64,000 bases of DNA. It comes from Synechococcales cyanobacterium. Lineage in GTDB: Bacteria > Cyanobacteriota > Cyanobacteriia > Leptolyngbyales > Leptolyngbyaceae. The translations under genes were made by a program, and so were the position numbers. Every line of letters starts with the position of its first letter. The first letter of the stretch is position 1. The notes beneath the pieces were generated by a model that was given only the letters and a program-made list of their open reading frames with translations, was not told the DNA's origin and did no database searches. Shown here piece after piece: positions 15,418-55,346 of the stretch. The DNA is taken from contig JAYUJY010000174.1 of NCBI GenBank assembly GCA_043764895.1, forward strand, positions 412 to 64,411, written 5' to 3'.

Positions 15418-15424
15418 TTTTTAG

Positions 15425-15459
15425 GTTTGTCAGGATGAACCTTGATTTATTCTGACAAA
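15425..15459. terminator. Candidate bidirectional hairpin terminator
   Basis: GTTTGTCAG ... CTGACAAA is an 8-9-bp stem with an 18-nt loop, between convergent genes ending at 15417 and 15461. Confidence 0.3.
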
Positions 15460-15460
15460 T

Positions 15461-37700: not shown

Positions 37701-39145
37701 AACAAATCGCCCGCATCCAAGAACTGCGCGACTACCAACCCGAACTCCCCACCACGCTCCAAGCTGAACTGCGCGATTACCAAGTCGAAGGCTTCACCTG
37801 GCTTGCCCGTCTTGCAAAATGGGGCGTCGGAGCCTGCCTAGCCGATGACATGGGCCTCGGCAAAACGCTGCAAACCCTGGCACTGATGCTCGTTCGTGCG
37901 CCTCAAGGTCCGACCCTAGCTATTGCCCCCACTTCCGTCTGTATGAACTGGCTCAGTGAAGCCCAAAAGTTTGCGCCGACGCTCAATCCCATTCAGTTCG
38001 GCTCTGGCAACCGCCAAAAGGTCTTAGACGAACTTAAGCCGTTTGATCTCGTGGTCTGTAGTTACGGTTTGCTCCAACAGGAAGAAGTCGCTGAAATGCT
38101 AGCCAAAATTCAATGGCAAACTATTGTCCTCGACGAAGCCCAATCCATCAAGAACTTCGCCACCAAACGATCGCAGGCGGCTATGAATCTACAAGGTGAA
38201 TTCAAACTATTAACAACCGGAACGCCCATTGAAAATCACTTAGGTGAACTGTGGAACTTGTTTAGATTTATCAATCCTGGATTACTCGGATCGCTCGATC
38301 AGTTTAACCAACGCTACGCCAACGCGATCGAAAAAGGACTCGATAAAAAAGTACGCGATCGCTTGCGAAAACTTATCCAGCCCTTCATCCTTCGTCGCAC
38401 TAAGACCCAAGTTCTACAAGAGCTTCCGTCCCGTACCGAAATCGTACTGAACGCCGAACTCAGTAAAGAAGAAATGGTTTTCTATGAAGCCCTGCGCCGA
38501 GAAGTCATCGCCAAACTCGAAGAAAGCGACGCCCCCGCCGGACAAAAACACCTGCAAGTTCTTGCTGAAATCATGCGCCTCCGCCGTGCCTGCTGCAACA
38601 CCCAACTGGTCAAACCCGAAATCGCCATTCCCAGCAGCAAACTCGAAGTCTTCGCGAACATCGTCACCGAACTCCTCGACAACAACCACAAAGCCCTCGT
38701 TTTCAGCCAATTCGTCGATCACCTTTCACTCATCCGCGCCTACCTCGACGAACAAGGCATCCACTACCAATACCTCGACGGCAGCACCCCCATGAAGGAC
38801 CGCAAAAAGCGCGTCGATGCGTTCCAAGCGGGAGAAGGCGACATCTTCCTCATCAGTCTTAAAGCAGGCGGAACCGGACTCAACCTCACCGCCGCAGATT
38901 ATGTTATCCACATGGATCCTTGGTGGAACCCTGCCGTGGAAGATCAAGCCTCCGATCGTGCCCACCGCATGGGCCAAAAACGCCCCGTGACCATCTACCG
39001 CATTGTGGCAAAAGACACGATCGAAGAAAAAATTGTCCAACTCCACCAACAAAAACGCGCCCTCGCAGACAGCCTCCTTGAAGGCACCGAAATGAGTGGA
39101 AAAATGAACACCAACGACCTGATCAAGATGATTCAAGAACGATAA
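34754..39145 (+). CDS. Large SNF2-family helicase/ATPase with about 950-aa N-terminal non-helicase region
   Basis: SNF2 motifs LADDMGLGKT (I), VLDEAQSIKN (II), TGTPIEN (III). Helicase_C includes QASDRAHRMGQ (VI). The start may be the downstream ATG near 34841. Confidence 0.9.
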   Translation: MIVGQLDNVRQKSLTTQLAIQPSPTAATAMPTSLSITPKQREKARERYAALDATSRAVVQMASIIYEPVPRATLLSCLDTIGIKNTEPIAETPKTTHAAIREAIAKKRGHSENARSFTASTFNDILMPLFKNSLLETSMMGVTCGDAIVEIATRDAIKCGLFKEMVEAIHHYMPVKQRFSYGGPRYFSSERQFIREIRVSIYSQEGVEAIETLFQEYYAYGTRSVMLSVNGCINQIADNPFDREWLESLEDLQLQKIILSSVLSSSIMELNNVEEAIGLLHDYSEQDDADTSTLLTYADLMIIRGDLDAAQSVIAKMPQAAEEIGYPLNGAIAFLKGDNDRAIVLFRETLAYFRKVVGKRKIYFRMPIGLLFVLALIKEGTSDSLKEAMEYVTIARKEKMPLSPTYAILDTFLQIQQGTFSKKAALLNEAPALNGDSWTMLISALCIYWSDRDEAAKCLPPGVKDLFDRSRSNGFLWFAMESAELLARITESSDNPDESEQWQAIADTLRDGSSYESIVDLIAPQEAWEQSLAALTNLTGIVPASTINKASSRIIWTLTPAGKSYSLQPKEQSLSAKGTWNKGRPIALKRLRGTPDEIPALTAQDLRIATTYIKAETYGYYNKPEYLWADDAILGLVGHPLVFFEANPSIAIEVVKGFPEILVSKIKGGKLALSFSPKLPVYDNTIVTKETPTRIKIIEITPDHRRINEILGSKNKLEVPESAKDKVLEAIGSISSLVTVQSDIGGGMSNAEEVPTISTPHVHLLPSGEGLRLSMLISPFGNGGTYYRPGVGGETVIAEVEGKRLQTTRDLKAEKQLTKLAITACPTLAEWEEIQGEWVIETAEASLELLLQLRALGDRAIVEWPQGEKMRVSNSAGFDNLHMKLKSQNEWFTASGELRLPDGSVIEMQNLLRLLDQSTGRFISLGDGEFVALTNEFRRRLEELRDYSESTRDGLRFNKLTAPTIEDWIDDVGSLESDKAWKEQIARIQELRDYQPELPTTLQAELRDYQVEGFTWLARLAKWGVGACLADDMGLGKTLQTLALMLVRAPQGPTLAIAPTSVCMNWLSEAQKFAPTLNPIQFGSGNRQKVLDELKPFDLVVCSYGLLQQEEVAEMLAKIQWQTIVLDEAQSIKNFATKRSQAAMNLQGEFKLLTTGTPIENHLGELWNLFRFINPGLLGSLDQFNQRYANAIEKGLDKKVRDRLRKLIQPFILRRTKTQVLQELPSRTEIVLNAELSKEEMVFYEALRREVIAKLEESDAPAGQKHLQVLAEIMRLRRACCNTQLVKPEIAIPSSKLEVFANIVTELLDNNHKALVFSQFVDHLSLIRAYLDEQGIHYQYLDGSTPMKDRKKRVDAFQAGEGDIFLISLKAGGTGLNLTAADYVIHMDPWWNPAVEDQASDRAHRMGQKRPVTIYRIVAKDTIEEKIVQLHQQKRALADSLLEGTEMSGKMNTNDLIKMIQER

Positions 39146-39227
39146 TCGATCGGTTTAAGAGCAAGTTTACAAACAACGTTCTTTGAGAATTCTAGAACTG
39201 GGATTAGCGACTGTTAACATTACTGGC

Positions 39228-39285
39228 GAACCTACTGTAAAGTCGATCGCGTCATCGGATGCTCTGACAGTCGGTCGGTTTGTCT
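39228..39285 (+). repeat. Cassette-boundary repeat family R4, partial copy a
   Basis: GAACCTACTGTAAAGTCGATCGCGTCATCGGATGCTCTGACAGTCGGTCGGTTTGTC matches the right half of copies at 40081, 40975 and 41747. Confidence 0.8.
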
Positions 39286-39307
39286 ATTAGATGACTGCTG
39301 AAACGCT

Positions 39308-39706
39308 TTAACTAGGAACAATAAGCCGAAGATTAGGAAGACCTTGAAAGTCTTTGAGATTGTGGGTAACGAGTTCTAAGTCATGACGAATGGCTGTTGC
39401 AGCAATCCAAGCATCTTGAGAGGAAAGTGCCCGTCCAGATTGCTGAGCATCTGCACGAACTTTAGCCCATGTTTTGCAGAGGCGATCGTCTACGGGGATA
39501 GCCAGGTAATTTGATAGATAGTGTTCGAGTTGGGAAATGCGTCGATCGCCCCACTGTCGTACAAATGCCCATTGATAAAGTTCGGCGATACTCATGAATG
39601 AGAGTGCGAGTTCCTGGCCATTGAGCAGAGATTCGTAGGGTTGAATATAGTCACTTCCTTTGAAAATAAAGGACGCAATATTGGTGTCAATTAAAACAAG
39701 GCTCAT
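39308..39706 (-). CDS. vapC: PIN-domain toxin (VapC family)
   Basis: LIDTNI N-terminal acidic motif and a later AWIAATA...LVTHNLKDF block. Paired with a small upstream ORF. Confidence 0.85.
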   Translation of the reverse strand: MSLVLIDTNIASFIFKGSDYIQPYESLLNGQELALSFMSIAELYQWAFVRQWGDRRISQLEHYLSNYLAIPVDDRLCKTWAKVRADAQQSGRALSSQDAWIAATAIRHDLELVTHNLKDFQGLPNLRLIVPS

Positions 39707-39715
39707 ACTAATTGA

Positions 39716-40006
39716 CTAGAGCGTTTCTTGACGCTGCGTTTGAAGAAAGCTGAGAAAATTTTCAATAGAATCTTCATCGGGCCAAAATGCAGCCGTAAGA
39801 TCTTTGAGGGTTTTAGGGGGAGACGTTTTCTGAGAAGATTGGAGCTGTGAGATCGTCCGACCTTCCCAAAATTCGATGCTTTGCTGTGTTAGAGCAGTGG
39901 GTTCAAGTAAGAGGTTAAGAACTTGTATTCGTTCGGTGCTGGAAAGGGGCTGAATGGCAGCGATCGCAGCTTCAAGTTGGGGTGTCATAGTCAATAGCTC
40001 CTCCAA
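39716..40006 (-). CDS. Antitoxin partner of VapC (small acidic-tailed protein)
   Basis: 96-aa ORF ending 10 nt upstream of the vapC start. The call is positional. Confidence 0.6.
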   Translation of the reverse strand: MEELLTMTPQLEAAIAAIQPLSSTERIQVLNLLLEPTALTQQSIEFWEGRTISQLQSSQKTSPPKTLKDLTAAFWPDEDSIENFLSFLQTQRQETL

Positions 40007-40080
40007 AATTCATGTCGTTCTCTATCATAGTCTTCGCTCGACTAACAAAGCGTAGGTTATGCTTCTCTACCACTGATCGC

Positions 40081-40175
40081 TAATCTGCCGATGGTCTACG
40101 ACCGACCTTGGGGCATCGAACCTGTTGCAAAGTCGATCGCGTCATCGGATGATCTGACAGTCGATCGGCTTGTCC
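40081..40175 (+). repeat. Cassette-boundary repeat family R4, copy b
   Basis: TAATCTGCCGATGGTCTACGACCGACCTTGGGGCATCGAACCTGTTGCAAAGTCGATCGCGTCATCGGATGATCTGACAGTCGATCGGCTTGTCC. Confidence 0.85.
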
Positions 40176-40192
40176 TAAAACAACTTACTTAT

Positions 40193-40579
40193 TCACCAAA
40201 TCACATTGACGGGATACTGAAAGATGTAGCGATCGATGCTAATGATGGGAATATCCTCGACTTGACTTTGGGCGACGAGCAGTCGGTCGAAGGGGTCTCG
40301 GTGCAAGTTTGGGAGCGATGCAACTTGGAGAATGTGGGGTAAGTTGACGGGAAGAATCATGAATCGATTTGTAGTAATTCGTGATGGAATGTAGGTTTCG
40401 GCAGGTTCTGGGAGTGTGAGCTTTCCAGTTCCTTGTTTAATTATGATTTCCCAGCCGTTGATCACGCTAAAGAGAATCGTGTGATCTGGATTGGCGATCG
40501 TGTCTCTTGCGATCGTAGAAAGTTGAGGGTTGTCAGTGACCCACCAGATAAAAGCATGGGTGTCGAGCAGAAACTTCAT
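40193..40579 (-). CDS. vapC: PIN-domain toxin (VapC family)
   Basis: MKFLLDTHAFIWW N-terminus and C-terminal DPFDRLLVAQS, typical of VapC. Confidence 0.88.
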   Translation of the reverse strand: MKFLLDTHAFIWWVTDNPQLSTIARDTIANPDHTILFSVINGWEIIIKQGTGKLTLPEPAETYIPSRITTNRFMILPVNLPHILQVASLPNLHRDPFDRLLVAQSQVEDIPIISIDRYIFQYPVNVIW

Positions 40580-40588
40580 GGGAATGGA

Positions 40589-40906
40589 TTATAACGGGTT
40601 GAGAAAATCATTGAGGAGAGCCTCGGGGAGAGGTGCATTGAAGTCATCTGAAATCCAGACTTTCCCTTGGTCCTGTCCTGGCTTTCTAGGAGAGCTGTTT
40701 TCTAAGATTTGTAGCCGATCGCGTTTCAACCGATCGCGTTTCAACCGATCGCGTTTCATCTGTGCGACCTCGATTTCGAGTTTGACGAGTCGCTCTTCTA
40801 ATACAGAGGTTGCGATGACCCAAGGTCGGTCGTAGACCATCGACTCTTTTCTGAGATGGAACCAGTCGCTGAGTCGAGAGGTGAGACTTTTGAGTGAGAT
40901 AGCCAT
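40589..40906 (-). CDS. Antitoxin partner of VapC, containing a 15-bp x3 tandem repeat and an inverted R4 fragment
   Basis: The C-terminal KVWISDDFNAPLPEALLNDF motif is typical of VapC-associated antitoxins. KRDRL x3 is encoded by the tandem repeat at 40715-40759. Residues MVYDRPWV are encoded by an inverted R4 fragment at 40814-40844. Confidence 0.65.
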   Translation of the reverse strand: MAISLKSLTSRLSDWFHLRKESMVYDRPWVIATSVLEERLVKLEIEVAQMKRDRLKRDRLKRDRLQILENSSPRKPGQDQGKVWISDDFNAPLPEALLNDFLNPL

Positions 40907-40974
40907 GGGAACGTCCTCGATCGCATTTCTACAAAATTATAACAAGGCTATTCACGAAGTTCTCTGCCATCATC

Positions 40975-41065
40975 TAATCCGCCGATGGTCTACGACCGAC
41001 TTTGGGCCATCGCATCTGCTGCAAGATCGATCGCGTCATCGGATGGTCGGACAGTCGATCGACTT
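40975..41065 (+). repeat. Cassette-boundary repeat family R4, copy c
   Basis: CTAATCCGCCGATGGTCTACGACCGACTTTGGGCCATCGCATCTGCTGCAAGATCGATCGCGTCATCGGATGGTCGGACAGTCGATCGACTTC. Confidence 0.85.
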
Positions 41066-41119
41066 CAGCACAAACCCGTCGTCGCAGCGATTTTGCGTTA
41101 ACTTAGAGTCAGTCCATCG

Positions 41120-41749
41120 GTGGGAACTGAAATCATGTCGATCGTCCTTAACGCCAGCGAACTCACGCTCAACGACTTGCATGACCGATTTGCCATCACC
41201 CGCGTCACCGAACCCACATTCTTTTCCGAATGGTACACAGATTTACCTCACTTGAGTGAAGTCGAACAGATTATGCTCGATCGAGTCCAACGGAATTTTC
41301 TGGACCAACTCGCTGCCCGGTCGATCATTGAAGAGACCGTCAAAATGGTCATCGTCTCGCCATTGCTTGATTTAGCCGGATTTTATAGAGCGCCCTACGG
41401 CATCGAATCCGAAGTCCCAGTTCAAATCATTATTCCTAGTGAAGACGGAATCATCCAAGGCCGAATTGATACCTTAATTGTTCAGCACAAGCTTTGGATC
41501 TTAGCTGTAGAATCAAAACGAACCCAACTCTCCATCCATGTCGCGCTGCCACAAGCGATCGCCTATCTCCTCGCTACCCCAACGCCCCAAACAACCGTCT
41601 TTGGACTCGTTACTAACGGCAGTGAATTCCTGTTTATCAAATTCGATCGGACGACAGGTCTGCACTACGATTTATCCAACGTATTCTCACTCCTGAATCG
41701 AGGTAACGATCTCTACACCGTCGCCCAAATATTGAAACAACTCGGTTAA
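41120..41749 (+). CDS. PD-(D/E)xK nuclease-fold protein (HsdR-N-terminal-like)
   Basis: The GRIDTLIV ... LAVESKR arrangement fits a D...ExK nuclease core. An alternative ATG start lies at 41135. Confidence 0.55.
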   Translation: MGTEIMSIVLNASELTLNDLHDRFAITRVTEPTFFSEWYTDLPHLSEVEQIMLDRVQRNFLDQLAARSIIEETVKMVIVSPLLDLAGFYRAPYGIESEVPVQIIIPSEDGIIQGRIDTLIVQHKLWILAVESKRTQLSIHVALPQAIAYLLATPTPQTTVFGLVTNGSEFLFIKFDRTTGLHYDLSNVFSLLNRGNDLYTVAQILKQLG

Positions 41750-41839
41750 TGCCAATGGTCTACGACCGACCTTGGGTCATCGCACCTGCTGCAAAATAGC
41801 TTGGGTCATTGGATGGTCTGACAGTCGATCGGCTTGTTC
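41747..41839 (+). repeat. Cassette-boundary repeat family R4, copy d
   Basis: TAATGCCAATGGTCTACGACCGACCTTGGGTCATCGCACCTGCTGCAAAATAGCTTGGGTCATTGGATGGTCTGACAGTCGATCGGCTTGTTC. Its first TAA is the stop codon of the preceding gene. Confidence 0.85.
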
Positions 41840-41898
41840 ATTGTGGCGATTGCCGTCGAGGGAAGTGGGTTAACGATCGAATTGAGAATGAATCACCT

Positions 41899-42261
41899 CT
41901 ATGCAGTCTGTTGCAAGGTTTGTTTTAGTTGTTTCATCCAAGCTTTGGTTCCGTAGATTCCTTGAAGGATGGAGGGGACGCGAAGATGAATATCTAGAGT
42001 TTCCCAATGAAGGGCGTTGCCGGAGGGTGTAAGTTCGATCGCAGCAATGTCTTTGGGGTCGGCGTCGGCGAGTCCTTGAAGGAGGTGATGAGGGACGGTG
42101 AAGGTGGAGCCGTCTTTAAGTTCGATGACGATGGTATGAGTGGTGCGATCGTAGTAGGCATTTTGCGCGCGTGGTTCGGTTGCGTCGGCCAGCATGGCTC
42201 TCGCTTGGGCGCGATCGAGTTGTTCTTTGAGATTTTCTTCGGTCAGGTTAGGTTTTTCCAT
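41899..42261 (-). CDS. DUF2442-family protein
   Basis: The C-terminal half (IVIELKDGSTFTVPHHLL...IELTPSGNALHWETLDIHLRV) matches the DUF2442 pattern. Overlaps its DUF4160 partner by 14 nt. Confidence 0.7.
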   Translation of the reverse strand: MEKPNLTEENLKEQLDRAQARAMLADATEPRAQNAYYDRTTHTIVIELKDGSTFTVPHHLLQGLADADPKDIAAIELTPSGNALHWETLDIHLRVPSILQGIYGTKAWMKQLKQTLQQTA

Positions 42262-42493
42262 GGATATTTTCCCAGGCTTGGAGAAGTTCGGTTTGGTACT
42301 GAGTCACAAGTTCGAGGGCTTGGACACCTGTACGAGGTTTTCCTCTGAGTTCAATGATGCTCGGAGGGATCGTTTCATTTCCTAAGCTAATTTTAGCTTC
42401 TTCTCCGGCGCGAAAGACATGGACATGGGACGGAAGATGATCGTCGAGATAGATAACAACTCTGAATCCATCTTGTCTCAGGATATTTGGCAT
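42248..42493 (-). CDS. DUF4160-family protein
   Basis: MPNILRQDGFRVVIYLDDHLPSHVHVF is a DUF4160 signature. The start is chosen at the internal ATG at 42493, because the longer ORF abuts the NLR stop. Confidence 0.7.
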   Translation of the reverse strand: MPNILRQDGFRVVIYLDDHLPSHVHVFRAGEEAKISLGNETIPPSIIELRGKPRTGVQALELVTQYQTELLQAWENIHGKT

Positions 42494-42535
42494 TTTGGGA
42501 TGTTGAGTTCGACTGTACGACTTGCTGACTGCCAA

Positions 42536-44935
42536 TCATAAAACATCCTGGCTATGCTGCGAAATCGCTTGAGTCATCGGATGCTCGGACAGGCGATCGG
42601 CTTGTCCATTCGTGTGCGCGGTGATAATTAGATCAACCAATCCATTGAATGTGCTTTCGACGTAGGGATGATCTTGGGGGAGCCGATCGAGGAAGACAGT
42701 TAGAGCTTTTTGGTAAAGGGTTTCGGCTTCCTCGTAACGCTCGAATTGAGTATAGAGTCCAGCGAGATTGTTATACCAAACAGCAACGTCTGGATGATCT
42801 TCTCCGAGATGTTGAATACCGATCGCCAAGGCGCGGAGGTAGAGGGGTTCTGCCGCTTCATAACGTCCCATCGATTCGTATAAAAGCGCCAAATTATTTA
42901 AACTCATTCCTATGTTTGGATGGTCCGGACCTAATTGCTTTTCGCCAATCGCCAAGGCGCGGAGGTAGAGGGGTTCTGCGGCTTCGTAACGTCCCATCGA
43001 TTTGTATAAAAGCGCCAAATTGTTCAAATTCGTTCCCGTAGACGGATGGTCCGGACCCAATTGCTTTTCGCCAATCGCCAAGGCGCGGAGGTAAAGGGGT
43101 CCTGCGGCTTCATAACGTCCCATGGATTCGTATAAAAGCGCCAAATTGTTCAAGCTCGTTCCCGTGGTCAGATGGTCTATTCCTAATTGCTTTTCTCTAA
43201 TCGCCAACGCACGAAGGTTGAGGGATTCTGCCGCTTCGTAACGTCCCATCGGTCGATATAAACCCGCCAAGTTATTCAAAATTGTTCCCGTCTCTAGATG
43301 GTCTGGTCCTGATTGCTTTTCTCTGATCGCCAATGCACGAAGATAAAGAGGCTCCGCTGCTTCGTAACGTCCCATTGATTCGTATAAACTCGCCAAATTA
43401 TTCAAGCTCGACCCTGTGGTCAGATGGTCCGGTCCTAATTGCTTGCTAATGATCGCCAAGGCTCGCAGGAAGAAGGATTCTGCCGCTTCGTAACGGCCCA
43501 TCGATCGATATAAACCCGCCAAATTATTCAAGCTCGTACCCGTGTCCGGATGGTCCGGGCCTAACTGCTTTTCTCTGATCGACAAGGCCAGTTCACTACA
43601 CCGAAGCCCCGGTCCAAATAACCCTTGAGTAGAGTAATAAAGGCTAAGGTTTGCTGCCACAGCGGCGATCGACTCTCCAAAAACCTCCACAGACTGCCGC
43701 TCCGTCAGATCCTCCCAATGGGTCATCCACAGCGCCGCATCCTCCACCTGCCCCACATCCATCGTCTGCTTACACCGCTCCCTTGCCGCCTCTAACATCA
43801 CCGCCACATAGCGCTCCCTTGCCTCACTCCCGTCAGCTCTCTCATCCAGCTTCACCACCAAAAACTCCCGCAGCATCGGATGCAACTGCTCATCCATTCC
43901 CACCAAATGCAAATTCACCAACTCATCCCAAGCCTCCTCAAGCTCTTCCTCATCCCACTCCGCTAGACAACTCCGCACCGCCACCGCAGGAATCCCCGCC
44001 AACCCAAACAAACTCAAAAACGCCCCCAAATATTGCGCCTTAGAACCCTCCTCCAGCGCCAGCCAGCTCACCTCAAAAGCAGCCGCCAAACTCACATGCG
44101 TCGTTGTCATCGGCTGTCCCCGCAGCAACGCCTTCGCCACCAGCCCCTGCCCCTTCAACCGCTCCAACACCACCACAAAACTAGTCCTGAGACTCTTCGC
44201 CAAATACCGCCCCACCAGCTCGATCGCCAACGGCAAATTTCCCAACCACTCACACACCTTCGTCGCCGCTTCTCTCTCCCGATCGACCCGCCCCGTCCCC
44301 ACAATCTCACCCAGCAACCCCAACGACTCCGGCAAACTAAACACCCCCAAATCCAACCGCCGCACCTGTAACCGCTCCCTTGTGGTCAACAGCACCCGAA
44401 ACGCCCCATCTGTCGGCAAATAAGGCCGCACCGCCGCATAATCCTGACTCGTCACCACATCATCCACAATCACCAGCCTCCGCCCCTCAATGCCCTGCCG
44501 CCAAAAGGCATAACATTCCTGCACCTTCTGCACATCACTACTCCTCGTCCCCGTCTCCGGCAGCCCCATCCGCACCGCATAGCTCAACACCTGCCCCACA
44601 ATATCCCGCCCACTCAGCCACCACACCCCTCCCGGATAATCCTCGTCATGCCGCACCGCATATTGAACCGCCAGCTCCGTCTTCCCCACGCCGCCCATCC
44701 CCGCTGTCGCCGCCGCGATCGCCACTCTCGACTCTTCCATCAGCAACCCATGTAACGTCGCAAGCTCCTTCTCCCGTCCCACAAAGGTTTCCGTTCCATT
44801 GCGATCGAGAGTCGGACGTTCTACCGATCGTTTTTCCCCATGGTAATGCGTCCCACCTGTAAAGTTTTGATTGTGATCGCCATCATTATGAACATCATAA
44901 AACTCTTGACGATCGGACGTAAAATCTTCATTCAT
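42536..44935 (-). CDS. NLR-like STAND NTPase: N-terminal short signalling motif + NB-ARC + TPR array
   Basis: Walker A GMGGVGKTELA and Walker B LVIVDDV. The C-terminal half carries at least 7 units of 42-aa TPR (NNLAxLYxSMGRYEAAEPLYLRALAI). N-terminal residues 18-33 (HNQNFTGGTHYHG) match the C-terminus of the upstream gene. Confidence 0.9.
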   Translation of the reverse strand: MNEDFTSDRQEFYDVHNDGDHNQNFTGGTHYHGEKRSVERPTLDRNGTETFVGREKELATLHGLLMEESRVAIAAATAGMGGVGKTELAVQYAVRHDEDYPGGVWWLSGRDIVGQVLSYAVRMGLPETGTRSSDVQKVQECYAFWRQGIEGRRLVIVDDVVTSQDYAAVRPYLPTDGAFRVLLTTRERLQVRRLDLGVFSLPESLGLLGEIVGTGRVDREREAATKVCEWLGNLPLAIELVGRYLAKSLRTSFVVVLERLKGQGLVAKALLRGQPMTTTHVSLAAAFEVSWLALEEGSKAQYLGAFLSLFGLAGIPAVAVRSCLAEWDEEELEEAWDELVNLHLVGMDEQLHPMLREFLVVKLDERADGSEARERYVAVMLEAARERCKQTMDVGQVEDAALWMTHWEDLTERQSVEVFGESIAAVAANLSLYYSTQGLFGPGLRCSELALSIREKQLGPDHPDTGTSLNNLAGLYRSMGRYEAAESFFLRALAIISKQLGPDHLTTGSSLNNLASLYESMGRYEAAEPLYLRALAIREKQSGPDHLETGTILNNLAGLYRPMGRYEAAESLNLRALAIREKQLGIDHLTTGTSLNNLALLYESMGRYEAAGPLYLRALAIGEKQLGPDHPSTGTNLNNLALLYKSMGRYEAAEPLYLRALAIGEKQLGPDHPNIGMSLNNLALLYESMGRYEAAEPLYLRALAIGIQHLGEDHPDVAVWYNNLAGLYTQFERYEEAETLYQKALTVFLDRLPQDHPYVESTFNGLVDLIITAHTNGQADRLSEHPMTQAISQHSQDVL
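42553..42606 (+). repeat. Cassette-boundary repeat family R4, partial copy e embedded in the NLR 3' end
   Basis: TATGCTGCGAAATCGCTTGAGTCATCGGATGCTCGGACAGGCGATCGGCTTGTCC. On the minus strand it encodes the NLR tail GQADRLSEHPMTQAISQH. Confidence 0.7.
42683..43564 (-). repeat. Tandem 126-bp coding repeats (TPR units) inside the NLR gene
   Basis: Six near-identical 42-aa units (aa 458-709) plus a more diverged seventh. The repeats are visible at DNA level (..CGCCAAGGCGCGGAGGTAGAGGGGTTCTGC(C/G)GCTTC(A/G)TAACGTCCCAT..). Confidence 0.85.
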
Positions 44936-45001: not shown

Positions 45002-45439
45002 TTAGGCAGGGTGATTATGCGTTCCTCCAGTAAAGTTTTTATTGTGAGAACCGATATTTTGAACCGCATAGCCTGTGCCACCCGTCGCGATGTTTTGCAC
45101 GATCGGGCTATTGTTTTCAATCTGCGTCAACTCAAAATGCAGATCATTCGCCAAATCCTTAACAGCCTTCTCAAAATCCGGCGACTGTTTCCAAAGACTC
45201 TCCAGAAAATTCTTCAGCGCCTGCACTTCTTCCGGTTTCTGCTCAGAAGCCCCAACCAGCGCTTCGACCGCTCGCTTATTCGGATGAATCTTCTCAAATA
45301 CAGCATTCCCTAACGCCGTCAGCTTCGTCGCCGCCTTCATCGTCAGCGTCTTCCCCAGTTCTCCCGCCCCGCCCTCAATAAATTTATCCAACGCAATCTT
45401 ACCGATCGCCATCGCCGCCGCCGTCGTCAAAACTTCCAT
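45002..45439 (-). CDS. Small helical Bell-like effector candidate with C-terminal signalling motif
   Basis: 146 aa from the ATG at 45439, with GGAG 7 nt upstream. Hydrophobic/amphipathic N-terminal helix (MEVLTTAAAMAIGKIALDKFIEGGAGELGK). The C-terminus VQNIATGGTGYAVQNIGSHNKNFTGGTHNHPA shares NFTGGTH.H with the NLR N-terminus. Confidence 0.7.
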   Translation of the reverse strand: MEVLTTAAAMAIGKIALDKFIEGGAGELGKTLTMKAATKLTALGNAVFEKIHPNKRAVEALVGASEQKPEEVQALKNFLESLWKQSPDFEKAVKDLANDLHFELTQIENNSPIVQNIATGGTGYAVQNIGSHNKNFTGGTHNHPA

Positions 45440-45631
45440 CACAAGTCTCCCAATCCTAAATTTAAGGTAGATATTTACTTCTTCGAGGACTAGACGAAGT
45501 ATTCCGCACAATTCTCCCGCTCTACCAAAAATTCATCAAAACCTTCACACGACTCATCTTCGATCGTCATTTCCGGAATTCGATCGACAACCATTGAAGT
45601 TCCACCTGTCACTGATCTGTGGAGCATTCCT

Positions 45632-50511: not shown

Positions 50512-50625
50512 TATGATCCTATTCTTTAAGAGCTGTGCTTGGCCTGATTCCACCCAGTTATCGGGCATTGCTGAAGGCAGAACAGTAAGGCGATCGCTCG
50601 AGTGAGTTGGGAGTGATGGGCAATC
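50512..50625 (+). repeat. Repeat family R3 copy a: xisH 3'-end remnant fused to xisI 3'-end plus downstream tail
   Basis: TATGATCCTATTCTTTAAGAG matches xisH at 54848-54868. It is followed by TGTGCTTGGCCTGATTCCACCCAGTTATCGGGCATTGCTGAAGGCAGAACAGTAAGGCGATCGCTCGAGTGAGTTGGGAGTGATGGG. Confidence 0.85.
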
Positions 50626-50790
50626 GGGTTGGTATTACTATCAGCGTCTCAAATCAGTGGCAGCAGATCGCCTCAACTCAACGCCAGTATCTTTCAACTA
50701 TCCGCTATATTTGTTTTTCATGCCGCGTTGTGTGACATTGACCTCAGTTTTCAAACATAAAGAGAGGCAATCCCTGAAGATCAACCTCTC

Positions 50791-50814
50791 TAATTCTAAT
50801 TCTAATTCTAATTA
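50791..50814. repeat. Hexanucleotide microsatellite (TAATTC)x3 + TAATTA
   Basis: Read directly: TAATTCTAATTCTAATTCTAATTA. Confidence 0.9.
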
Positions 50815-50837
50815 CATTGCTGCTCGGTTTAAAGTTT

Positions 50838-51197
50838 TCAAGAGAACTCAGGACAATATGTTGGTTTAGCTACACGCGCCACTGTTTTATCCAAGAGCCA
50901 AAATGCTTGCTTCATCTCGGAACTTTCCAGTTCCTGATTTTTTACCCATTCGATATCTAAGATATCGCTTTGACTCATTCCCTGACTACGCAATTCACAA
51001 TAATTCTTACCTAGATGTACCCAAGGTACTGGATCTGCATCAAGAGTTTTGATCGCTAACTCCGATCCAAGGTTGCCCTCCATCATGACTTTCAAATCGT
51101 AAACAAAGCCACCATCTATCAAGAAGTTGGCCTGTGCAGGCAAACTAATAAACAACCAAACTACTGCCACTGCCAGCGACATGATAAACCCTTTCAT
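50838..51197 (-). CDS. Small secreted hypothetical protein
   Basis: 119-aa ORF with a clear signal peptide (MKGFIMSLAVAVVWLFISLPAQA). Lies in the HIP1-free AT-rich segment. Confidence 0.5.
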   Translation of the reverse strand: MKGFIMSLAVAVVWLFISLPAQANFLIDGGFVYDLKVMMEGNLGSELAIKTLDADPVPWVHLGKNYCELRSQGMSQSDILDIEWVKNQELESSEMKQAFWLLDKTVARVAKPTYCPEFS

Positions 51198-51364
51198 GAA
51201 TGTTCCTCTCTGGTACTAATTTTCATACATTTAGTTACCTAGTACTACGCGGCGTACGTTACCCAGTCTTTAGATTAATCATGGCTTTACCTAGCCTGAT
51301 TTGCCATTTTAAATAGCTAGTTTATTTACGCCGGAGACTACTAGGAATTGGTGCTTGCTGCTGA

Positions 51365-51880
51365 TCAAGCAAGAATCTTGAGCTTTGCGGTGTTGAATTC
51401 ACCTTCTGTGAGAGCACCAGCGTTCTTCAATTCAACAAGCTTCTTTAGTTCATCAGCCAAGTTACTGCCATTAGGTTGCTGTCCCGTGCGAGAGGACTTT
51501 TTAGCTGCTTCAATGCGTTGAGCTAACTCAGTGTAGAACTTATTGGCATCTTCAACTTCCTGTTTGATAGTTCCAGCAAACGGGAGGACATTTTCGCGCT
51601 CATCATACCCAGGCTTGAAGCTCTTTGCGTTCAAATCCCCAGACCCTGAGTAGTTAATTTCAACAAACCCATATCCAGCTATGTTCCATGAAGAAGGACG
51701 GTTGAACTGATAACTTGTGATATCCTCCAAACGCACTTTCTTCTCCCCTTTTCGACTCTTTGAGATTCCACTCAACTTGTAGATTGTCAAGAACTCAGAG
51801 TCTATTACCCATTCAGCGTACAAACGCTTAAATCCTACAGTGCTATCTTCATTTTTCAGAAGCTTGCCAAAGTCCGACAT
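51365..51880 (-). CDS. SHOCT-domain protein with N-terminal PH-like/unknown domain
   Basis: C-terminal DELKKLVELKNAGALTEGEFNTAKLKIL fits the SHOCT motif. Confidence 0.7.
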   Translation of the reverse strand: MSDFGKLLKNEDSTVGFKRLYAEWVIDSEFLTIYKLSGISKSRKGEKKVRLEDITSYQFNRPSSWNIAGYGFVEINYSGSGDLNAKSFKPGYDERENVLPFAGTIKQEVEDANKFYTELAQRIEAAKKSSRTGQQPNGSNLADELKKLVELKNAGALTEGEFNTAKLKILA

Positions 51881-52592
51881 TGCTATTTCCTCAATCCTTA
51901 TCAGATGATTAAAGTGTTCCCATCAGAAGAGAGTATCTAACTTACGATTCCTCCACTATAAATCTTGAGGTACAAGCGGCATAACTATCGAGTTGAACCG
52001 CCTTAAAACTTCTTGCGATTGCAAACGCAGTTACAGAGTGGCTCAACGGCACACCTTTCTAACAAGTCGGTTCTAACGAGATTGTTCTACTGTACCTGGT
52101 AGGATTTAGTTTTCCCAACGTAGAATATTTTATATCTTGAAGTAAATAATCATATAGACGGCTAGTTTGCTGCCTAAGTATCCAGAGCGGGATCTTAGAC
52201 TGACAAGCTATGTATATAGCAATCCTAAATGATTCATGAATTTTGGGATCCCATTTCAATCCTGGAATGCTTATCGGTCAACGGTTTCGGTCGTTAGATT
52301 TTTTACAAATGATTTAGGACTGCTATATTTCAGGAGCAAGAATCTTACCACTCTACCTAAGATTCCAAAACTAGGAATTAGAGTAATTTGGAGATAGACA
52401 TGGATCCAAAGCCGATCGCTCATCACTCCAGCCCAATCGCATAAACCGAACTCCCGAATCAAGCAACCTGAATCCCAAATCAACTAATCTGAGTCTCCGA
52501 TCGAGTAACCTACATCCCAAATCAAGTAAATCGGTCTTCAACTCATAAAGCTTCTCGATCGTCCTTAAAATGAACCTCCGATTGAATAAATC

Positions 52593-53075
52593 TTAAATCT
52601 GAGTTAATTCTCGATCGGGATTGTATTTTAAACGGAGCAGTTGATGGTGATGAAGTGAAAGTATCGCATAAGTTTTCCCGTTGTCATCACTGAAGTCCAC
52701 TTCATAAACATCAGAGGCCAAGATTTTGGCGATCGTACCGACTTGTCCAACGGAAAGACCTCGATCGGGCAGATCTTCAATTAAGGCAACGACATCCCGG
52801 TATTGAATCTTGATGGATTGTGAAATCTTTTGTAGAGAATACTGTAGGGATTGCTTGTATTTGTCTCTCTGCTCCATTCGTTCTGCCACATTTTCTGGCG
52901 AAACCTCACTATAGGTTGAGGTGCCGTCTTCATGGTGGACAGTGACAGAGTATCCATTTTCACGCAGCCTTTGGGCATGTCTACCTCGGACAGGTTTCCC
53001 CATTTGACTGAGATTATATTCAGGTAACATTTCATCTTCTTCCATCGAAGAAGTGATGTCTTTAGCTTGGGTCAT
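52593..53075 (-). CDS. BrnA-position antitoxin candidate fused to a DUF4926 domain
   Basis: Start taken at the ATG at 53075, overlapping the brnT stop by 14 nt. The N-terminal part (MLPEYNLSQMGKPVRGRHAQRL) is antitoxin-like. The C-terminal DVVALIEDLPDRGLSVGQVGTIAKILASDVYEVDFSDDNGKTYA fits DUF4926. Confidence 0.6.
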   Translation of the reverse strand: MTQAKDITSSMEEDEMLPEYNLSQMGKPVRGRHAQRLRENGYSVTVHHEDGTSTYSEVSPENVAERMEQRDKYKQSLQYSLQKISQSIKIQYRDVVALIEDLPDRGLSVGQVGTIAKILASDVYEVDFSDDNGKTYAILSLHHHQLLRLKYNPDRELTQI

Positions 53076-53337
53076 AGAGACGAGCCTCCTGAGAGGTGCA
53101 AGGGCGAGCACTAATGATTCGGATACGGTTTCCCCGTTCTGCATAGACGACTAACAGTAGCCGATTGTATTTGGATAAACCAATATCAATATAGCGCAAC
53201 TCCTCGAAAGAATGTTCTGTATCTTCAAAGGTCTCAGCATCGGTGTCTTCAAACACGGTAGAAGCTTCTTCAAAGGAAACGCCATGTTTTGTAAAATTAA
53301 TCTGGGCCTTATTCTCATCCCACTCAAAAGATCCCAT
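53062..53337 (-). CDS. brnT: BrnT-family (DUF497) toxin
   Basis: FEWDENKAQINFTKHGVSFEEASTVFED ... IRIISARP is a characteristic BrnT sequence. Confidence 0.88.
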   Translation of the reverse strand: MGSFEWDENKAQINFTKHGVSFEEASTVFEDTDAETFEDTEHSFEELRYIDIGLSKYNRLLLVVYAERGNRIRIISARPCTSQEARLYDPS

Positions 53338-53432
53338 CGATTTATTGACAGCACTTGATTTTGCGGTTCTTATAGTAACATTTCTGAGTTTTCGCTGAGC
53401 AAGTTAATCTAAAAGACATCTTGAAAAAGGCA

Positions 53433-53527
53433 ATCGTGCTTGGCCTGATTCCACCCAGTTATCGGGCATTGCTGAAGGCAGAACAGTAGGGCGATCGCTT
53501 CAATGAGTTGGGAGTGATGGGCGATCG
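53433..53527 (+). repeat. Repeat family R3 copy b (xisI 3'-end plus tail, no xisI body)
   Basis: ATCGTGCTTGGCCTGATTCCACCCAGTTATCGGGCATTGCTGAAGGCAGAACAGTAGGGCGATCGCTTCAATGAGTTGGGAGTGATGGGCGATCG. Confidence 0.85.
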
Positions 53528-53544
53528 AATTCCCATTCAATTTA

Positions 53545-53961
53545 TTACAGCAGCAATCGACGAAATCCAGCTTGTGAAAAGTGTTCATCGGCAGTTAATA
53601 CATCGGAGATGTTGCGATCGCGCATGACCGTAAAGGAAATACAATCTACTAATCCCCATTCTTTATCTAATCGGGTTTTAAAGAGTTCCAAGGCGCGGCT
53701 ATAAAGCTGAGTTGAAAGGGGGACGATCGTGACGTTTGGATCAGTTTCTAGAGACGTGAGGAGTTGGACAGCGGCTTTTCTGTAACGGGCTTTAGAGAGG
53801 GCATTACCGAGTTCGAGGAGAATTGCTTGGGTTGTAACGAGTTTTGTTTTTTGTCTTGTCAGTTCTGCGGCGATCGCCATGGCTTGGAAATGGTGCCGAT
53901 CGGTCACTGAAGAAAGAGCAATGGCAAAGGAGGTATCCAGAAAGACTTCAGTCATGAGCAT
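53545..53961 (-). CDS. vapC: PIN-domain toxin (VapC family)
   Basis: VFLDTSFAIAL N-terminal motif and C-terminal LVDCISFTVMRDRNISDVLTADEHF. Overlaps the upstream small ORF by 14 nt. Confidence 0.85.
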   Translation of the reverse strand: MLMTEVFLDTSFAIALSSVTDRHHFQAMAIAAELTRQKTKLVTTQAILLELGNALSKARYRKAAVQLLTSLETDPNVTIVPLSTQLYSRALELFKTRLDKEWGLVDCISFTVMRDRNISDVLTADEHFSQAGFRRLLL

Positions 53962-54181
53962 TCGGTTCTGGATAAATTTCGACTTGGGTAGACCAGCCGA
54001 TCGGACCTTCTAAATTAAGCGCTTGTGCCGTTTGTAGAAAGCTCGTAGGCTGGGCTGGGCTGGAAAGTTGATTGAGCTTCAAAAGTAACCATTCGGTGAG
54101 AACAAGTCCATTCCGATCGGCTTGCTGGGTAAGCGCAACGTATAATTCGTCGTTGAGTTCTAAGGAGAGATGCTGGCTCAT
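53948..54181 (-). CDS. Antitoxin partner of VapC
   Basis: 77-aa ORF overlapping the vapC start. The call rests on position and size. Confidence 0.6.
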   Translation of the reverse strand: MSQHLSLELNDELYVALTQQADRNGLVLTEWLLLKLNQLSSPAQPTSFLQTAQALNLEGPIGWSTQVEIYPEPNAHD

Positions 54182-54217
54182 GGGACGATCGGGAGAGTTA
54201 AGGTTGTACTTAGTATA

Positions 54218-54330
54218 GCGATCGATCGCTTGAGTAGCTTAGGAAGATGGACGATCGTGCTTGGCCTGATTCCACCCAGTTATCGGGCATTGCTGAAGTC
54301 CCAGCAGTAGCGCGATCGCTTGAGTAAGTC
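54218..54330 (+). repeat. Repeat family R3 copy c (tail fragment + xisI 3'-end + partial tail)
   Basis: GCGATCGATCGCTTGAGTAGCTTAGGAAGATGGACGATCG is followed by TGCTTGGCCTGATTCCACCCAGTTATCGGGCATTGCTGAAGTCCCAGCAGTAGCGCGATCGCTTGAGTAAGTC. Confidence 0.8.
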
Positions 54331-54467
54331 TGCGTTATGGTCGATCGGATGAGTATCATTAGATAAGCAGCGGCAGATAGCCTTCGTAATACAATCGCGT
54401 ACTATCATCTGTGTCATCGACTTGTTAGCGCTAATATGGTAAGTAAGATCCTAATTTTAAATGAGCA

Positions 54468-55249: not shown

Positions 55250-55279
55250 CGCGATCGCTTGAGTGAGTTGGGAGTGATA
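55193..55279 (+). repeat. Repeat family R3 copy d (the resident xisI 3'-end and downstream tail)
   Basis: ATCGTGCTTGGCCTGATTCCACCCAGTTATCGGGCATTGCTGAAGTCCCAGCAGTAGCGCGATCGCTTGAGTGAGTTGGGAGTGAT. Confidence 0.85.
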
Positions 55280-55346
55280 ATCAAACTGCCCACGCTAAAC
55301 ACAACTGCTATCATAAGGTCAGTGAAAGACACGGAGCATTGGCATA

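What the first reader, a model, noticed from the sequence alone, without database searches (positions are those of the whole stretch)
39228..42606. A ~90-bp direct repeat (R4) brackets each of four successive small gene cassettes and is fused to the NLR 3' end
Seen. Copies on the + strand lie at 39228-39285 (right half only), 40081-40175, 40975-41065, 41747-41839 and 42553-42606 (right half only). The consensus is roughly TAAT..GCC(G/A)ATGGTCTACGACCGACCTTGGG.CATCGCA.CTGCTGCAA.ATCGATCGCGTCATCGGATGGTCTGACAGTCGATCGGCTTGTC. The element contains an internal direct repeat (GATGGTCTACGACCGAC / GATGGTCTGACAGTCGATCGG). Between successive copies sit exactly one module each: VapBC-1, VapBC-2, the PD-(D/E)xK gene and DUF2442/DUF4160. 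In copy d the first TAA is the stop codon of the preceding gene. In copy e the element supplies the last ~18 codons of the NLR (GQADRLSEHPMTQAISQH). The reverse strands of copies a and b would encode similar tails (Q(T/A)DRLS(E/D)HPMTRSTLQ). An inverted left-half fragment (40814-40844) is embedded in the VapB-2 coding sequence (MVYDRPWV). Inference. Either a recombination or insertion site is used repeatedly to stack cassettes, in an integron-like logic without a visible intI, or a small mobile element targets gene ends.
Basis: partly seen in the sequence, partly recalled or inferred. Interest (0 to 1): 0.6.

Follow-up and report, generated by a model that had tools for sequence, protein, structure and literature searches.

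The report
Reiterated NLR gene tail between cassettes
The 90-bp repeat is two things joined: old copies of the last ~20 codons of the neighbouring NLR immune-type gene, left behind as toxin-antitoxin and defence gene cassettes were stacked at that gene's end, plus a tiny 24-base hairpin insert; the same stacking pattern recurs across this cyanobacterial genome and its relatives.

Summary
Observation confirmed: five direct copies, with one gene module between each pair. R4 is composite.

Right half (~58 nt): the native 3' coding tail of the NB-ARC/TPR gene (..ADRLSEHPMT..). It occurs only here in this genome. It is the normal C-terminus of NLR-like proteins across Leptolyngbyaceae-type cyanobacteria. 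Copies a-d are untranslated relics that keep the reading frame, and their differences fall mostly at third codon positions.

Left half: a 24-nt hairpin module, about 40 copies genome-wide, inserted into CG^ATCG (HIP1 core) like Nostoc SDR5. A relative shows the empty site.

A congener has one tail followed directly by VapBC-2, so the two differ by an indel whose ends lie inside the tail. At least 10 related genomes carry tail/cassette arrays behind NLR genes.

Genome-wide, 84 loci have local direct repeats. Of 71 PIN and ParE/RelE toxin genes, 42% lie between such pairs, which enclose 3.3% of the genome. Repeat edges coincide with CGATCG.

Best reading: repeated cassette insertion at the gene end with long target duplication, or an equivalent homologous integration. 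It is not an attC or integron array, a MITE or an RNA element. The enzymology is unresolved. The scan had already noted a sister array (xisI 3' end) in this window.

The parts
42549..42611 (-). Copy e: the working 3' end of the NB-ARC/TPR (NLR) gene, codons ..GQADRLSEHPMTQAI.., followed by a divergent end SQHSQDVL*
   Evidence: It aligns with the NLR tail of G008 up to ..ATT T(T/C)G CA.
41781..41842 (-). Copy d, tail relic; reads EQADRLSDHPMTQAILQQVR*, not preceded by a start codon
41753..41782 (+). Copy d, 24-nt hairpin module within its flanking C(A/G)..ATCG (here CAATGG...CATCG)
   Evidence: (I1).
41011..41068 (-). Copy c, tail relic; reads VDRLSDHPMTRSILQQMR and continues through the hairpin as WPKVGRRPSAD*
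   Evidence: It is contiguous with the VapB-2 upstream region as in G008.
40983..41012 (+). Copy c, 24-nt hairpin module in CG^ATCG
   Evidence: (I2).
40117..40176 (-). Copy b, tail relic; reads GQADRLSDHPMTRSTLQQVR, then CPKVGRRPSAD* through the hairpin
   Evidence: It is 90% identical to the working NLR tail of G008.
40089..40118 (+). Copy b, 24-nt hairpin module in CG^ATCG
   Evidence: (I3).
39227..39290 (-). Copy a, tail relic without hairpin; reads QTDRLSEHPMTRSTLQ*. Its homology to b ends exactly at the CG of the CGATCG site where b carries the hairpin
40813..40842 (-). Inverted copy of the 24-nt hairpin module inserted in frame in VapB-2 (adds MVYDRPWV)
   Evidence: I3. The empty site GAACCGATCGCAGC is seen in the G002 orthologue.
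39308..40006 (-). Cassette 1: VapC-1 (PIN, 39308-39706) plus an upstream 96-aa partner (39716-40006)
40193..40906 (-). Cassette 2: VapC-2 (PIN, 40193-40579) plus a 105-aa partner (40589-40906)
   Evidence: Orthologues lie directly behind the NLR tail in G008.
41120..41749 (+). Cassette 3: PD-(D/E)xK / HSDR_N-like gene, opposite orientation
   Evidence: E 2.5e-4, below the cut-off. An 83% identical copy lies at another locus of G008, with homology 41090-41750 only.
41899..42535 (-). Cassette 4: DUF4160 (42248-42535) plus DUF2442 (41899-42261)
   Evidence: The same pair follows an NLR tail in G021.
42536..44935 (-). Anchor gene: 799-aa NB-ARC + TPR (NLR-like) protein whose 3' end is the repeated sequence

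Best explanation
R4 is not an element of its own. Its right half is the 3' coding tail of the NLR gene. Each time a gene-size cassette (VapBC-1, VapBC-2, PD-(D/E)xK, DUF4160/DUF2442) was added at the end of that gene, about 56-109 nt of the tail was duplicated. The gene therefore kept a working end (copy e), and a relic copy (d, c, b, a) was left on the far side of each cassette. This is 'insertion with long target duplication', iterated at one gene end. The relic copies are untranslated scars that remain substrates for recombination, which removes or reshuffles cassettes.

The left half is a separate 24-nt hairpin module of the SDR5 kind. It entered a CG^ATCG site at the very end of the tail and was copied along with it into b, c and d.

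Shown: the identity of both halves; the relic nature of a-d; the indel with ends inside the tail relative to a congener; the recurrence of tail/cassette arrays in related genomes; and the genome-wide bracketing of TA genes by local direct repeats.

Inferred: that the duplications arise at insertion through break repair at staggered or different breaks, possibly at CGATCG. The alternative is Campbell-type homologous integration of a cassette circle carrying one tail copy. Within this statement I put break-type duplication at about 60% and homologous integration at about 40%.
For: 1. Tail identity. NLR orthologues and paralogues end with the same sequence: G008 ..TNGQADRLSEHTMTRSILQQVRSVD*, G019 ..GQADHLSDHPMTRSILQQIQAAN*, and many genera ..RTDELSDDPMTRSLLQQLQ..*. 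The sequence model R1 hits 43 of 90 family genomes.
2. The right half is unique to this locus in G000.
3. Relics a-d keep the tail frame. Pairwise differences among them fall 12/10/33 on codon positions 1/2/3. They therefore diverged largely while coding, as successive or different working tails would.
4. Neighbouring copies share derived states: a,b TRST; b,c,d the hairpin; d,e TQAI.
5. G008 has a single tail that aligns with e towards the NLR and with c towards VapB-2. The difference is an indel of [DUF4160/2442-d-PD] with both ends in the tail.
6. e and d share only the proximal ~56 nt. Beyond that e has new sequence while d keeps the old end, as expected if the last cassette entered inside the tail.
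7. Parallel arrays (NLR, tail, TA cassette, tail, TA cassette, tail) occur in at least 10 genomes of at least 6 genera.
8. In G000, 84 loci carry local direct repeats of 40-250 nt. 30 of 71 PIN and ParE/RelE genes lie between such pairs, against 3.3% of the genome (p about 1e-25). 22 of 71 lie within pairs no more than 1.5 kb apart, which cover 1.2% of the genome.
9. Other arrays reiterate the 3' end of other anchor genes: xisI and the C65 methylase-like gene. The repeat is therefore target-derived, not cassette-borne.
10. No recombinase gene lies in the locus or in the related arrays.
11. The phenomenon is documented for restriction-modification units, with repeats often spanning stop codons, including in a cyanobacterium (PMC2853133).
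Against: No true empty site (NLR tail followed directly by the SNF2 flank) was found, and no strain of the same species was available.

Copy identities are only 85-90%, so the events are old and their order cannot be proved.

The simple proximal-insertion series conflicts with one fact. b carries the hairpin, although VapBC-2 already sits next to a hairpin-less tail in G008. Gene conversion between b and c, or independent histories, must be invoked.

In the xisI array the relic copies lie upstream of the intact xisHI. That fits homologous (Campbell) integration or decay of tandem modules better than break-type duplication.

The same RelE-like cassette with a similarly marked distal tail occurs in several genera, which suggests that cassette-plus-tail units can travel together.

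Attempts to find empty sites for other G000 arrays in congeners were uninformative.
Confidence: 0.6

Rival explanations
1. Portable-homology cassette exchange. Cassettes circulate as circles carrying one tail copy, excised by RecA recombination between two tails. They integrate by single crossover into any NLR tail, which is conserved across many NLR paralogues and genomes. On this view the array is built purely by homologous recombination, not by target duplication at a break.
For: The tail is conserved at DNA level across paralogues and genera. The same RelE-like cassette lies in tail arrays of G021/G088/G094, G061 and G080, with distal tails carrying shared marks such as an 8-codon insert after MTR in G061 and G080. 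Relic tails resemble each other more than they resemble the resident working tail. In the xisI array an intact xisHI lies between two copies of its own 3' end, which is Campbell-like. Crossovers inside the tail explain the G000/G008 difference.
Against: It does not explain how the first duplicate arises. It does not explain why TA cassettes all over the genome are bracketed by repeats derived from whatever local gene end they sit at (transketolase-like, methylase-like, RM S-like anchors). Homology arms of 56-109 nt at 85-90% identity are poor RecA substrates.
Confidence: 0.22
2. Graveyard of tandem NLR genes. Each relic tail is what is left of a separate NLR paralogue whose body was deleted, with TA cassettes simply sitting between former genes.
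For: Tandem runs of 4-5 full NLR genes, each with the tail, exist in G069 (L035). In some genomes the extra copy is a 77-100-aa C-terminal NLR fragment that includes the last TPR (L026, L031, L039). Third-position-biased divergence fits formerly working genes.
Against: In G000 the four relics have nearly the same extent (58-64 nt, within about 10 nt). Three share a hairpin insertion at the identical site, which is unlikely for independent deletions. The G000/G008 difference has both ends inside the tail. Non-paralogous single-copy anchors show the same reiteration.
Confidence: 0.1
3. Integron-type array. R4 copies are attC-like sites recombined by an integron integrase acting in trans (a CALIN).
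For: The genome encodes an integron-integrase homologue above the curated cut-off (TIGR02249, 355.8 bits) on contig C89, with small divergent cassettes. Copy b can fold on the minus strand into a bulged hairpin (z = -2.6). TA cassettes are typical of chromosomal integrons (PMC3874152).
Against: The intI homologue is split over two frames and lies on another contig. Its neighbouring attC-like sites (CCTAAC...GTTAGC) bear no likeness to R4. The b fold depends on the unrelated hairpin module, and copies c and d (z about -0.6 and -0.8) and their plus strands do not fold better than shuffles; a and e were not folded. The tail alignment has no conserved structure or covariation. There are no RYYYAAC/GTTRRRY cores. 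The repeat is coding sequence of the anchor gene with codon-type variation. Cassettes lie in both orientations.
Confidence: 0.03
4. Functional non-coding element. R4 is a transcribed or processed RNA, a terminator, or an operator placed before or after each TA operon.
For: Each copy lies 15-75 nt upstream of the next minus-strand operon. One promoter-like match overlaps copy e.
Against: There are no Rfam matches. Folding is not better than shuffles for most copies, and there is no conserved structure. Promoter and terminator matches are at chance level. The variation pattern is that of codons. Copy d is flanked by two convergent gene ends.
Confidence: 0.03

Closest known systems
Insertion with long target duplication (Nobusato et al. 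2000, Gene 259:99; Furuta, Abe & Kobayashi 2010, PMC2853133)
   Same: A gene unit without any mobility gene is flanked by direct repeats longer than 30 bp that derive from the target. The repeats often span a stop codon. It has been seen in many phyla, including the cyanobacterium Microcystis.
   Different: It was described for restriction-modification units, mostly as single events with near-identical repeats. Here the cargo is toxin-antitoxin and small defence cassettes. The event is iterated 3-4 times at one gene end to give an array. The repeats are old (85-90% identical). About a third to two fifths of the PIN and ParE/RelE toxin genes are so bracketed.
SDR5, small dispersed repeat of Nostocaceae (Elhai et al. 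2008, as cited in PMC4390886 and PMC5861425)
   Same: A very small (here 24 nt, 8 codons) hairpin module inserted precisely between the 3rd and 4th base of HIP1 (GCG^ATCGC). It is dispersed in genes and spacers and tolerated in frame.
   Different: It is found here in Leptolyngbyaceae-type genomes, whereas PMC5861425 states that no SDR-like repeat was found outside the Nostocaceae. Sequence likeness to SDR5 itself could not be tested because the paper is not held.
Chromosomal integron cassette arrays (attC, IntI)
   Same: Gene-size, often TA, cassettes each separated by a similar ~60-120-nt repeat, in a stacking logic.
   Different: The repeat is the anchor gene's coding tail, not a structured attC. 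There is no adjacent integrase. Orientations are mixed, and each array in the genome has its own target-derived repeat.
Tandem accretion of islands at the 3' end of a gene or tRNA by site-specific integrases (for example tycheposon and genomic-island arrays; from my own knowledge)
   Same: The 3' end of the target gene is reiterated between successive cargo blocks, and the gene keeps a working end.
   Different: Those elements carry, or depend on, a tyrosine integrase and a fixed att core. None is seen in or near these arrays, and repeat extents vary between arrays.
Orphan toxin/immunity cassettes behind rhs and cdiA genes (from my own knowledge)
   Same: A fragment of the main gene is repeated in front of each downstream module and allows recombination with the main gene.
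   Different: There the repeated piece is an internal conserved motif and each orphan supplies a new C-terminal toxin domain. Here the extreme C-terminus is repeated and the cassettes are autonomous operons.

Membership tests
Insertion with long target duplication | Direct repeats longer than 30 bp flank an inserted gene unit | tested here: met
   Repeats of 56-109 nt bracket each of the four cassettes.
Insertion with long target duplication | The repeat is target sequence, present once at the uninterrupted site in a related genome | tested here: inconclusive
   G008 has one tail where G000 has e...c, and it matches e on one side and c on the other. No site free of all cassettes was found, and the polarity (insertion versus deletion) is not proved.
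Insertion with long target duplication | No transposase or integrase inside or beside the inserted unit | tested here: met
   ORFs and Pfam. The nearest tyrosine recombinase is 10.5 kb away among housekeeping genes. There is no serine recombinase in the genome.
Insertion with long target duplication | The repeat is unique to the locus (not a dispersed element) | tested here: met
   The right half is found only at the five places.
Integron cassette array (attC / CALIN) | attC: an imperfect palindrome with R''/L''/L'/R' boxes and a GTTRRRY core, with structure conserved while sequence varies | tested here: not met
   No such cores are present. Only copy b (minus strand) folds better than shuffles among the three full copies tested on both strands. 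The consensus structure is -0.45 kcal/mol with no covariation.
Integron cassette array (attC / CALIN) | Integron integrase with attI next to the array (not required for a CALIN) | tested here: not met
   The only intI homologue is on contig C89, split over two frames, with different attC-like sites.
SDR5-like small dispersed repeat (left half) | A module of about 21-27 nt able to form a hairpin, dispersed in many copies | tested here: met
   24 nt with an 11-bp stem including two G-U pairs. 42 copies with at most 2 mismatches in the 16-nt core. Present in most congeners.
SDR5-like small dispersed repeat (left half) | Precise insertion between the 3rd and 4th nucleotide of HIP1 (GCG^ATCGC) | tested here: met
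   33 of 42 copies are flanked by CGA...TCG. The empty site CCGATCGC is seen in the G002 VapB-2 orthologue. The rule is quoted in PMC4390886.
SDR5-like small dispersed repeat (left half) | Sequence relatedness to Nostocaceae SDR5 | not tested
   Elhai et al. 2008 is not held and no SDR5 sequence was at hand.
MITE / small transposable element (whole R4) | Terminal inverted repeats, short target duplication and dispersed copies | tested here: not met
   The whole unit and its right half occur only at this locus. No terminal inverted repeats were found.
Site-specific integrative island accretion at a gene 3' end | An integrase-encoding element and a fixed att core shared by all repeats | tested here: not met
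   No integrase lies in the arrays of G000 or of 15 related loci. The extents of relic tails vary between arrays from about 30 nt to 100 codons.

The most novel reading that the evidence does not exclude
HIP1-rich cyanobacteria may have a break-and-join activity at the HIP1 core (CGATCG). The same activity would insert the 24-nt hairpin modules and also let gene-size TA and defence cassettes enter at nearby sites with duplication of the interval. That would build integrase-free cassette arrays at gene ends. It would give HIP1 a concrete role in gene flow and explain how TA-rich islands grow in these genomes.
Probability: 0.2. Interest if true: 0.8.

Novelty: new variant of a known kind. Interest (0 to 1): 0.6.

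Why it matters
It shows how a defence or TA island can grow gene by gene without an integron or a transposase. Each addition copies the end of the gene it lands in, so the host gene survives and a dated scar is left. The relic tails are a readable record of successive events at one NLR gene. The pattern is not local. It recurs behind NLR genes in many Leptolyngbyaceae-type genomes, and it brackets a third to two fifths of this genome's PIN and ParE/RelE genes. Long target duplication was known for restriction-modification units but appears not to have been described for TA cassettes or as iterated arrays. The exact coincidence of repeat edges and of the 24-nt module with CGATCG gives a testable link to the unexplained abundance of HIP1 in cyanobacteria. 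The hairpin module also extends SDR5-type elements beyond the Nostocaceae.

Tried and rejected
- Rfam scan of 38000-44000 at E <= 1: no match.
- Single-strand folding of the full copies: only b (minus strand) beats shuffles, and that fold pairs the unrelated hairpin module with the tail.
- Consensus folding of 12 tails: no structure.
- Promoter and terminator scans: chance level.
- Integron hypothesis: an intI homologue exists but is elsewhere, frameshifted, and has unlike attC-type sites.
- Strain variation through exact-protein look-ups: only the same sample was found, with 100% identical sequence.
- Empty-site searches in congeners for three other G000 repeat loci: the contexts were too rearranged at species-level divergence to read.
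- The first profile for the search for related loci was too diverse; a narrower one worked.
- Elhai 2008 could not be read.
- A tyrosine recombinase in the window (27721-28764) was considered and set aside. It lies among housekeeping genes 10.5 kb away.
- CGATCG at the edges of R4 itself was considered as evidence but not relied on, because R4 holds 2-3 such sites in 90 nt. Only the genome-wide statistic is used.

Full report
**Observation.** The repeat is real. The repeat finder gives five direct copies of a 58-nt unit (39227, 40117, 41011, 41781, 42549; 72-90% identity). It gives three copies of the full ~92-nt unit (40080, 40974, 41744; 82-88%). It also gives an inverted copy of the left part inside the VapB-2 frame at 40813-40842.
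- two PIN toxins, each with an upstream partner;
- a PD-(D/E)xK / HSDR_N-like gene on the other strand (below the Pfam cut-off);
- DUF4160/DUF2442;
- then a 799-aa NB-ARC + TPR protein whose last codons are copy e.

Two independent public assemblies of the same sample are identical over 12 kb.

**R4 is a composite.** BLAST of each copy against the whole 5.0-Mb assembly separates two parts. The right half occurs only at these five places. The left ~30 nt occurs on many contigs.

**The left half is a 24-nt hairpin module.** About 30-42 dispersed copies exist in G000: CGATGGTCTACGACCGACCKKRGGTCATCG, with an 11-bp stem including two G-U pairs and the loop GACCGACC. The module is present in most genomes of the genus and in some of the family.
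- 33 of 42 copies are flanked by CGA...TCG, so 24 nt sit inside a CGATCG site.
- The VapB-2 orthologue of congener G002 has the intact site GAACCGATCGCAGC where G000 has CG + 24 nt + ATCG. This adds eight in-frame codons, MVYDRPWV.
- The G008 NLR tail likewise has ..GTGCGATCGGTG.. where copies b and c carry the module.

[quoted passage not shown] PMC5861425 states that no SDR-like repeat was found outside the Nostocaceae. I could not read Elhai 2008, so sequence relatedness is untested.

**The right half is the NLR gene's own tail.**
- In G008 the orthologous NLR (84-85% DNA identity) ends ..ITAHTNGQADRLSEHTMTRSILQQVRSVD*.
- A TPR fragment in G019 ends ..GQADHLSDHPMTRSILQQIQAAN*.
- A sequence-only model of the tail (A2, R1) hits 43 of 90 genomes of the family.
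- In fetched loci it is the C-terminus of large TIR/NB-ARC/TPR proteins..RTDELSDDPMTRSLLQQLQ..*.
- Named records place these genomes in Myxacorys, Stenomitos, Phormidesmis, Leptolyngbya and allies.

The element is therefore not 'fused to' the NLR; the NLR end is the source of the element.

**Nature of copies a-d.** On the minus strand they still read the tail:
- a: QTDRLSEHPMTRSTLQ*
- b: GQADRLSDHPMTRSTLQQVR + CPKVGRRPSAD* through the hairpin
- c: VDRLSDHPMTRSILQQMR + WPKVGRRPSAD*
- d: EQADRLSDHPMTQAILQQVR*

None is preceded by a usable open frame. Differences among a-d fall 12/10/33 on codon positions 1/2/3. The pairs are not independent, but the bias is the opposite of what in-situ neutral decay, an attC-type structural constraint or a mobile element would give. 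It means the copies diverged largely while they were working gene ends. Neighbours share derived states: a,b TRST; b,c,d the hairpin at the identical site; d,e TQAI.

**Cassette turnover at the tail.** G008 has Bell-like gene, NLR, one tail and VapBC-2. Its tail aligns with copy e and the NLR on one side. On the other side it aligns with copy c, the spacer and VapB-2; the overlap is the ~50-nt tail. G000 and G008 thus differ by an indel of [DUF4160/2442-d-PD-(D/E)xK] whose ends lie inside the tail.
- Homology with G008 stops at the VapC-2 stop codon, that is at the edge of copy b.
- The PD-(D/E)xK gene has an 83% identical copy at a different G008 locus. Homology is confined to 41090-41750, the stretch between c and d.
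- In G002, VapB-2 keeps a truncated c-type copy (hairpin plus part of the tail) next to a different gene.
- e and d share only the proximal ~56 nt. Distal to that, e has new sequence (SQHSQDVL*) while d keeps the older end. This is expected if the last cassette entered within the tail.

**Recurrence in relatives.** Clustered tail copies spaced 0.65-1.15 kb occur in at least 10 genomes of at least 6 genera. Examples:
- G021: TIR-NB-ARC/TPR, DUF4160, DUF2442, tail, PIN pair, tail, RelE pair, tail.
- G088, G090, G013, G014, G101, G094 and G068 show NLR, tail, TA cassette, tail, and so on.

The extents of relic copies differ between arrays, from about 30 nt to 77-100-aa NLR fragments, which argues against a fixed recombination core. 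No recombinase accompanies these arrays.

**Not specific to the NLR.**
Copies lie at 50535, 53436, 54257 and 55196, with TA cassettes and xisHI itself between them. The unit is bounded on both sides by CGATCG.
- A self-comparison of the genome finds 84 loci with direct repeats of 40-250 nt, at least 80% identical and 0.5-4 kb apart.
- Several of these reiterate the 3' end of an adjacent long gene with TA cassettes between. C65 is methylase-like and was checked by alignment. C30, C83 and C148 also show this.
- 20 of 39 PIN and 10 of 32 ParE/RelE genes lie between such pairs, which enclose 3.3% of the genome (p about 1e-25).
- 22 of 71 lie between pairs no more than 1.5 kb apart, covering 1.2% of the genome. 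No repeat overlaps the toxin domains.
- Copies span the stop codon of a long ORF somewhat more often than chance (12.4% against 7.1%), but not starts.

**CGATCG at repeat edges.** 27 of 266 repeat edges end exactly with CGATCG in both copies, against about 4 per neighbouring offset. A further 21 have it straddling the edge by 2 nt in one copy. 26 of 84 loci show this. Copy a of R4 ends exactly at the CG of the site that carries the hairpin in b. I treat the link to a CGATCG-directed break as a lead, not a result.

**Mechanism.** The closest documented process is 'insertion with long target duplication', found by genome comparison for restriction-modification units. In that process there is no mobility gene, the repeats are longer than 30 bp, they are derived from the target, and they often span a stop codon. 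Cases include one in Microcystis, and the mechanism is unknown but thought to involve double-strand breaks (PMC2853133). R4 fits this as an iterated case with TA and defence cargo.

What I cannot separate is break-type duplication from Campbell-type homologous integration of a cassette circle carrying one tail. Three facts point towards homologous integration:
- the xisI array, where relics lie upstream of an intact xisHI;
- cassette-plus-tail units shared across genera;
- the hairpin in b, although hairpin-less G008 already has VapBC-2 at the tail.

Against homologous integration stands the genome-wide use of whatever local gene end is at hand. Decay of tandem NLR genes remains possible; G069 has 4-5 in a row. 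It fits the uniform extents and the shared hairpin poorly.

**Rejected readings.** The integron reading fails on structure, on sequence cores and on the integrase. The intI homologue is on C89, split over two frames, and has unlike attC-type sites. An RNA or regulatory element is not supported.

**Limits.**
- No conspecific genomes were available.
- Empty-site searches for other loci were unreadable at species-level divergence.
- The order of events in the array is inferred.

Noticed in passing
window 50535-55287: Second array of the same logic. The last ~55 nt of xisI plus ~35 nt downstream occur four times in direct orientation, with BrnT-like and PIN TA cassettes and xisHI itself between them. 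42 nt are 100% identical in all four copies, and the unit is bounded on both sides by CGATCG.
   Followed up: partly
G000 whole genome (e.g. C65:21907-24822, C30:676-3161, C148:28987-31115, C83:4248-5793, C62:32985-35860, C119:8696-10317, C181:2472-4400): 84 loci carry local direct repeats of 40-250 nt spaced 0.5-4 kb. Many partition TA-size cassettes and reiterate the 3' end of an adjacent long gene. 30 of 71 PIN and ParE/RelE genes lie inside such brackets, against 3.3% of the genome.
   Followed up: partly
G000 whole genome: The edges of these local repeats coincide exactly with CGATCG (HIP1 core) about 7 times more often than neighbouring offsets (27 of 266 edges at offset 0; 26 of 84 loci). 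CGATCG itself occurs 24,867 times, about 20 times the uniform expectation.
   Followed up: partly
G000:C89:22400-25227: An integron-integrase homologue above the NCBIfam cut-off (TIGR02249, 355.8 bits) is split over two frames. Next to it lie small divergent cassettes (193-aa ORF, a 75+91-aa pair, 74-aa ORF) separated by attC-like sites (CCTAAC...CACCCG...CGGGTG...GTTAGC).
   Followed up: partly
window 45002-45511 and 44830-44935: The small protein upstream of the NLR ends ..KNFTGGTHNHPA and the NLR begins ..HNQNFTGGTHYHGEK. This shared terminal motif resembles Bell-domain/NLR amyloid-signalling pairs, as already noted by the scan. G008 has the same pair.
   Followed up: no
L030:7548-7585 and 8344-8382 (G061); L034:7712-7739 (G080): Relic NLR tails in two other genera carry a different 8-codon insertion right after ..PMTR (RLCFTEYL / KLRYTKCS), at the ACG-CGA-TCG site. 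This looks like another family of 24-nt modules in CGATCG.
   Followed up: no
L035 (G069, Phormidium tanganyikae record) 1597-15919: Four or five full-length NLR-like genes in tandem (772-1102 aa). Most end with the ELSD(D/H)P(M/I)TRSLLQ tail.
   Followed up: no
many loci: The C-terminal peptide ..(R)T(D/S)ELSD(D/H)PMT(R/Q)SLLQQLQ.. is a conserved end of TPR-type NLR proteins across Leptolyngbyales. No Pfam family covers it in the G000 protein and its function is unknown.
   Followed up: no
window 27721-28764: A 347-aa tyrosine recombinase (Phage_integrase, 73.8 bits) lies between alcohol-dehydrogenase/esterase genes and an Mrp-type antiporter operon. It is one of only five tyrosine recombinases in the genome, and no serine recombinase was found.
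   Followed up: partly
L044:4149-4781 (G008:C238): The PD-(D/E)xK cassette gene of the array sits in G008 between an SppA-like peptidase gene and a small retropepsin-like pair, without flanking repeats.
   Followed up: partly
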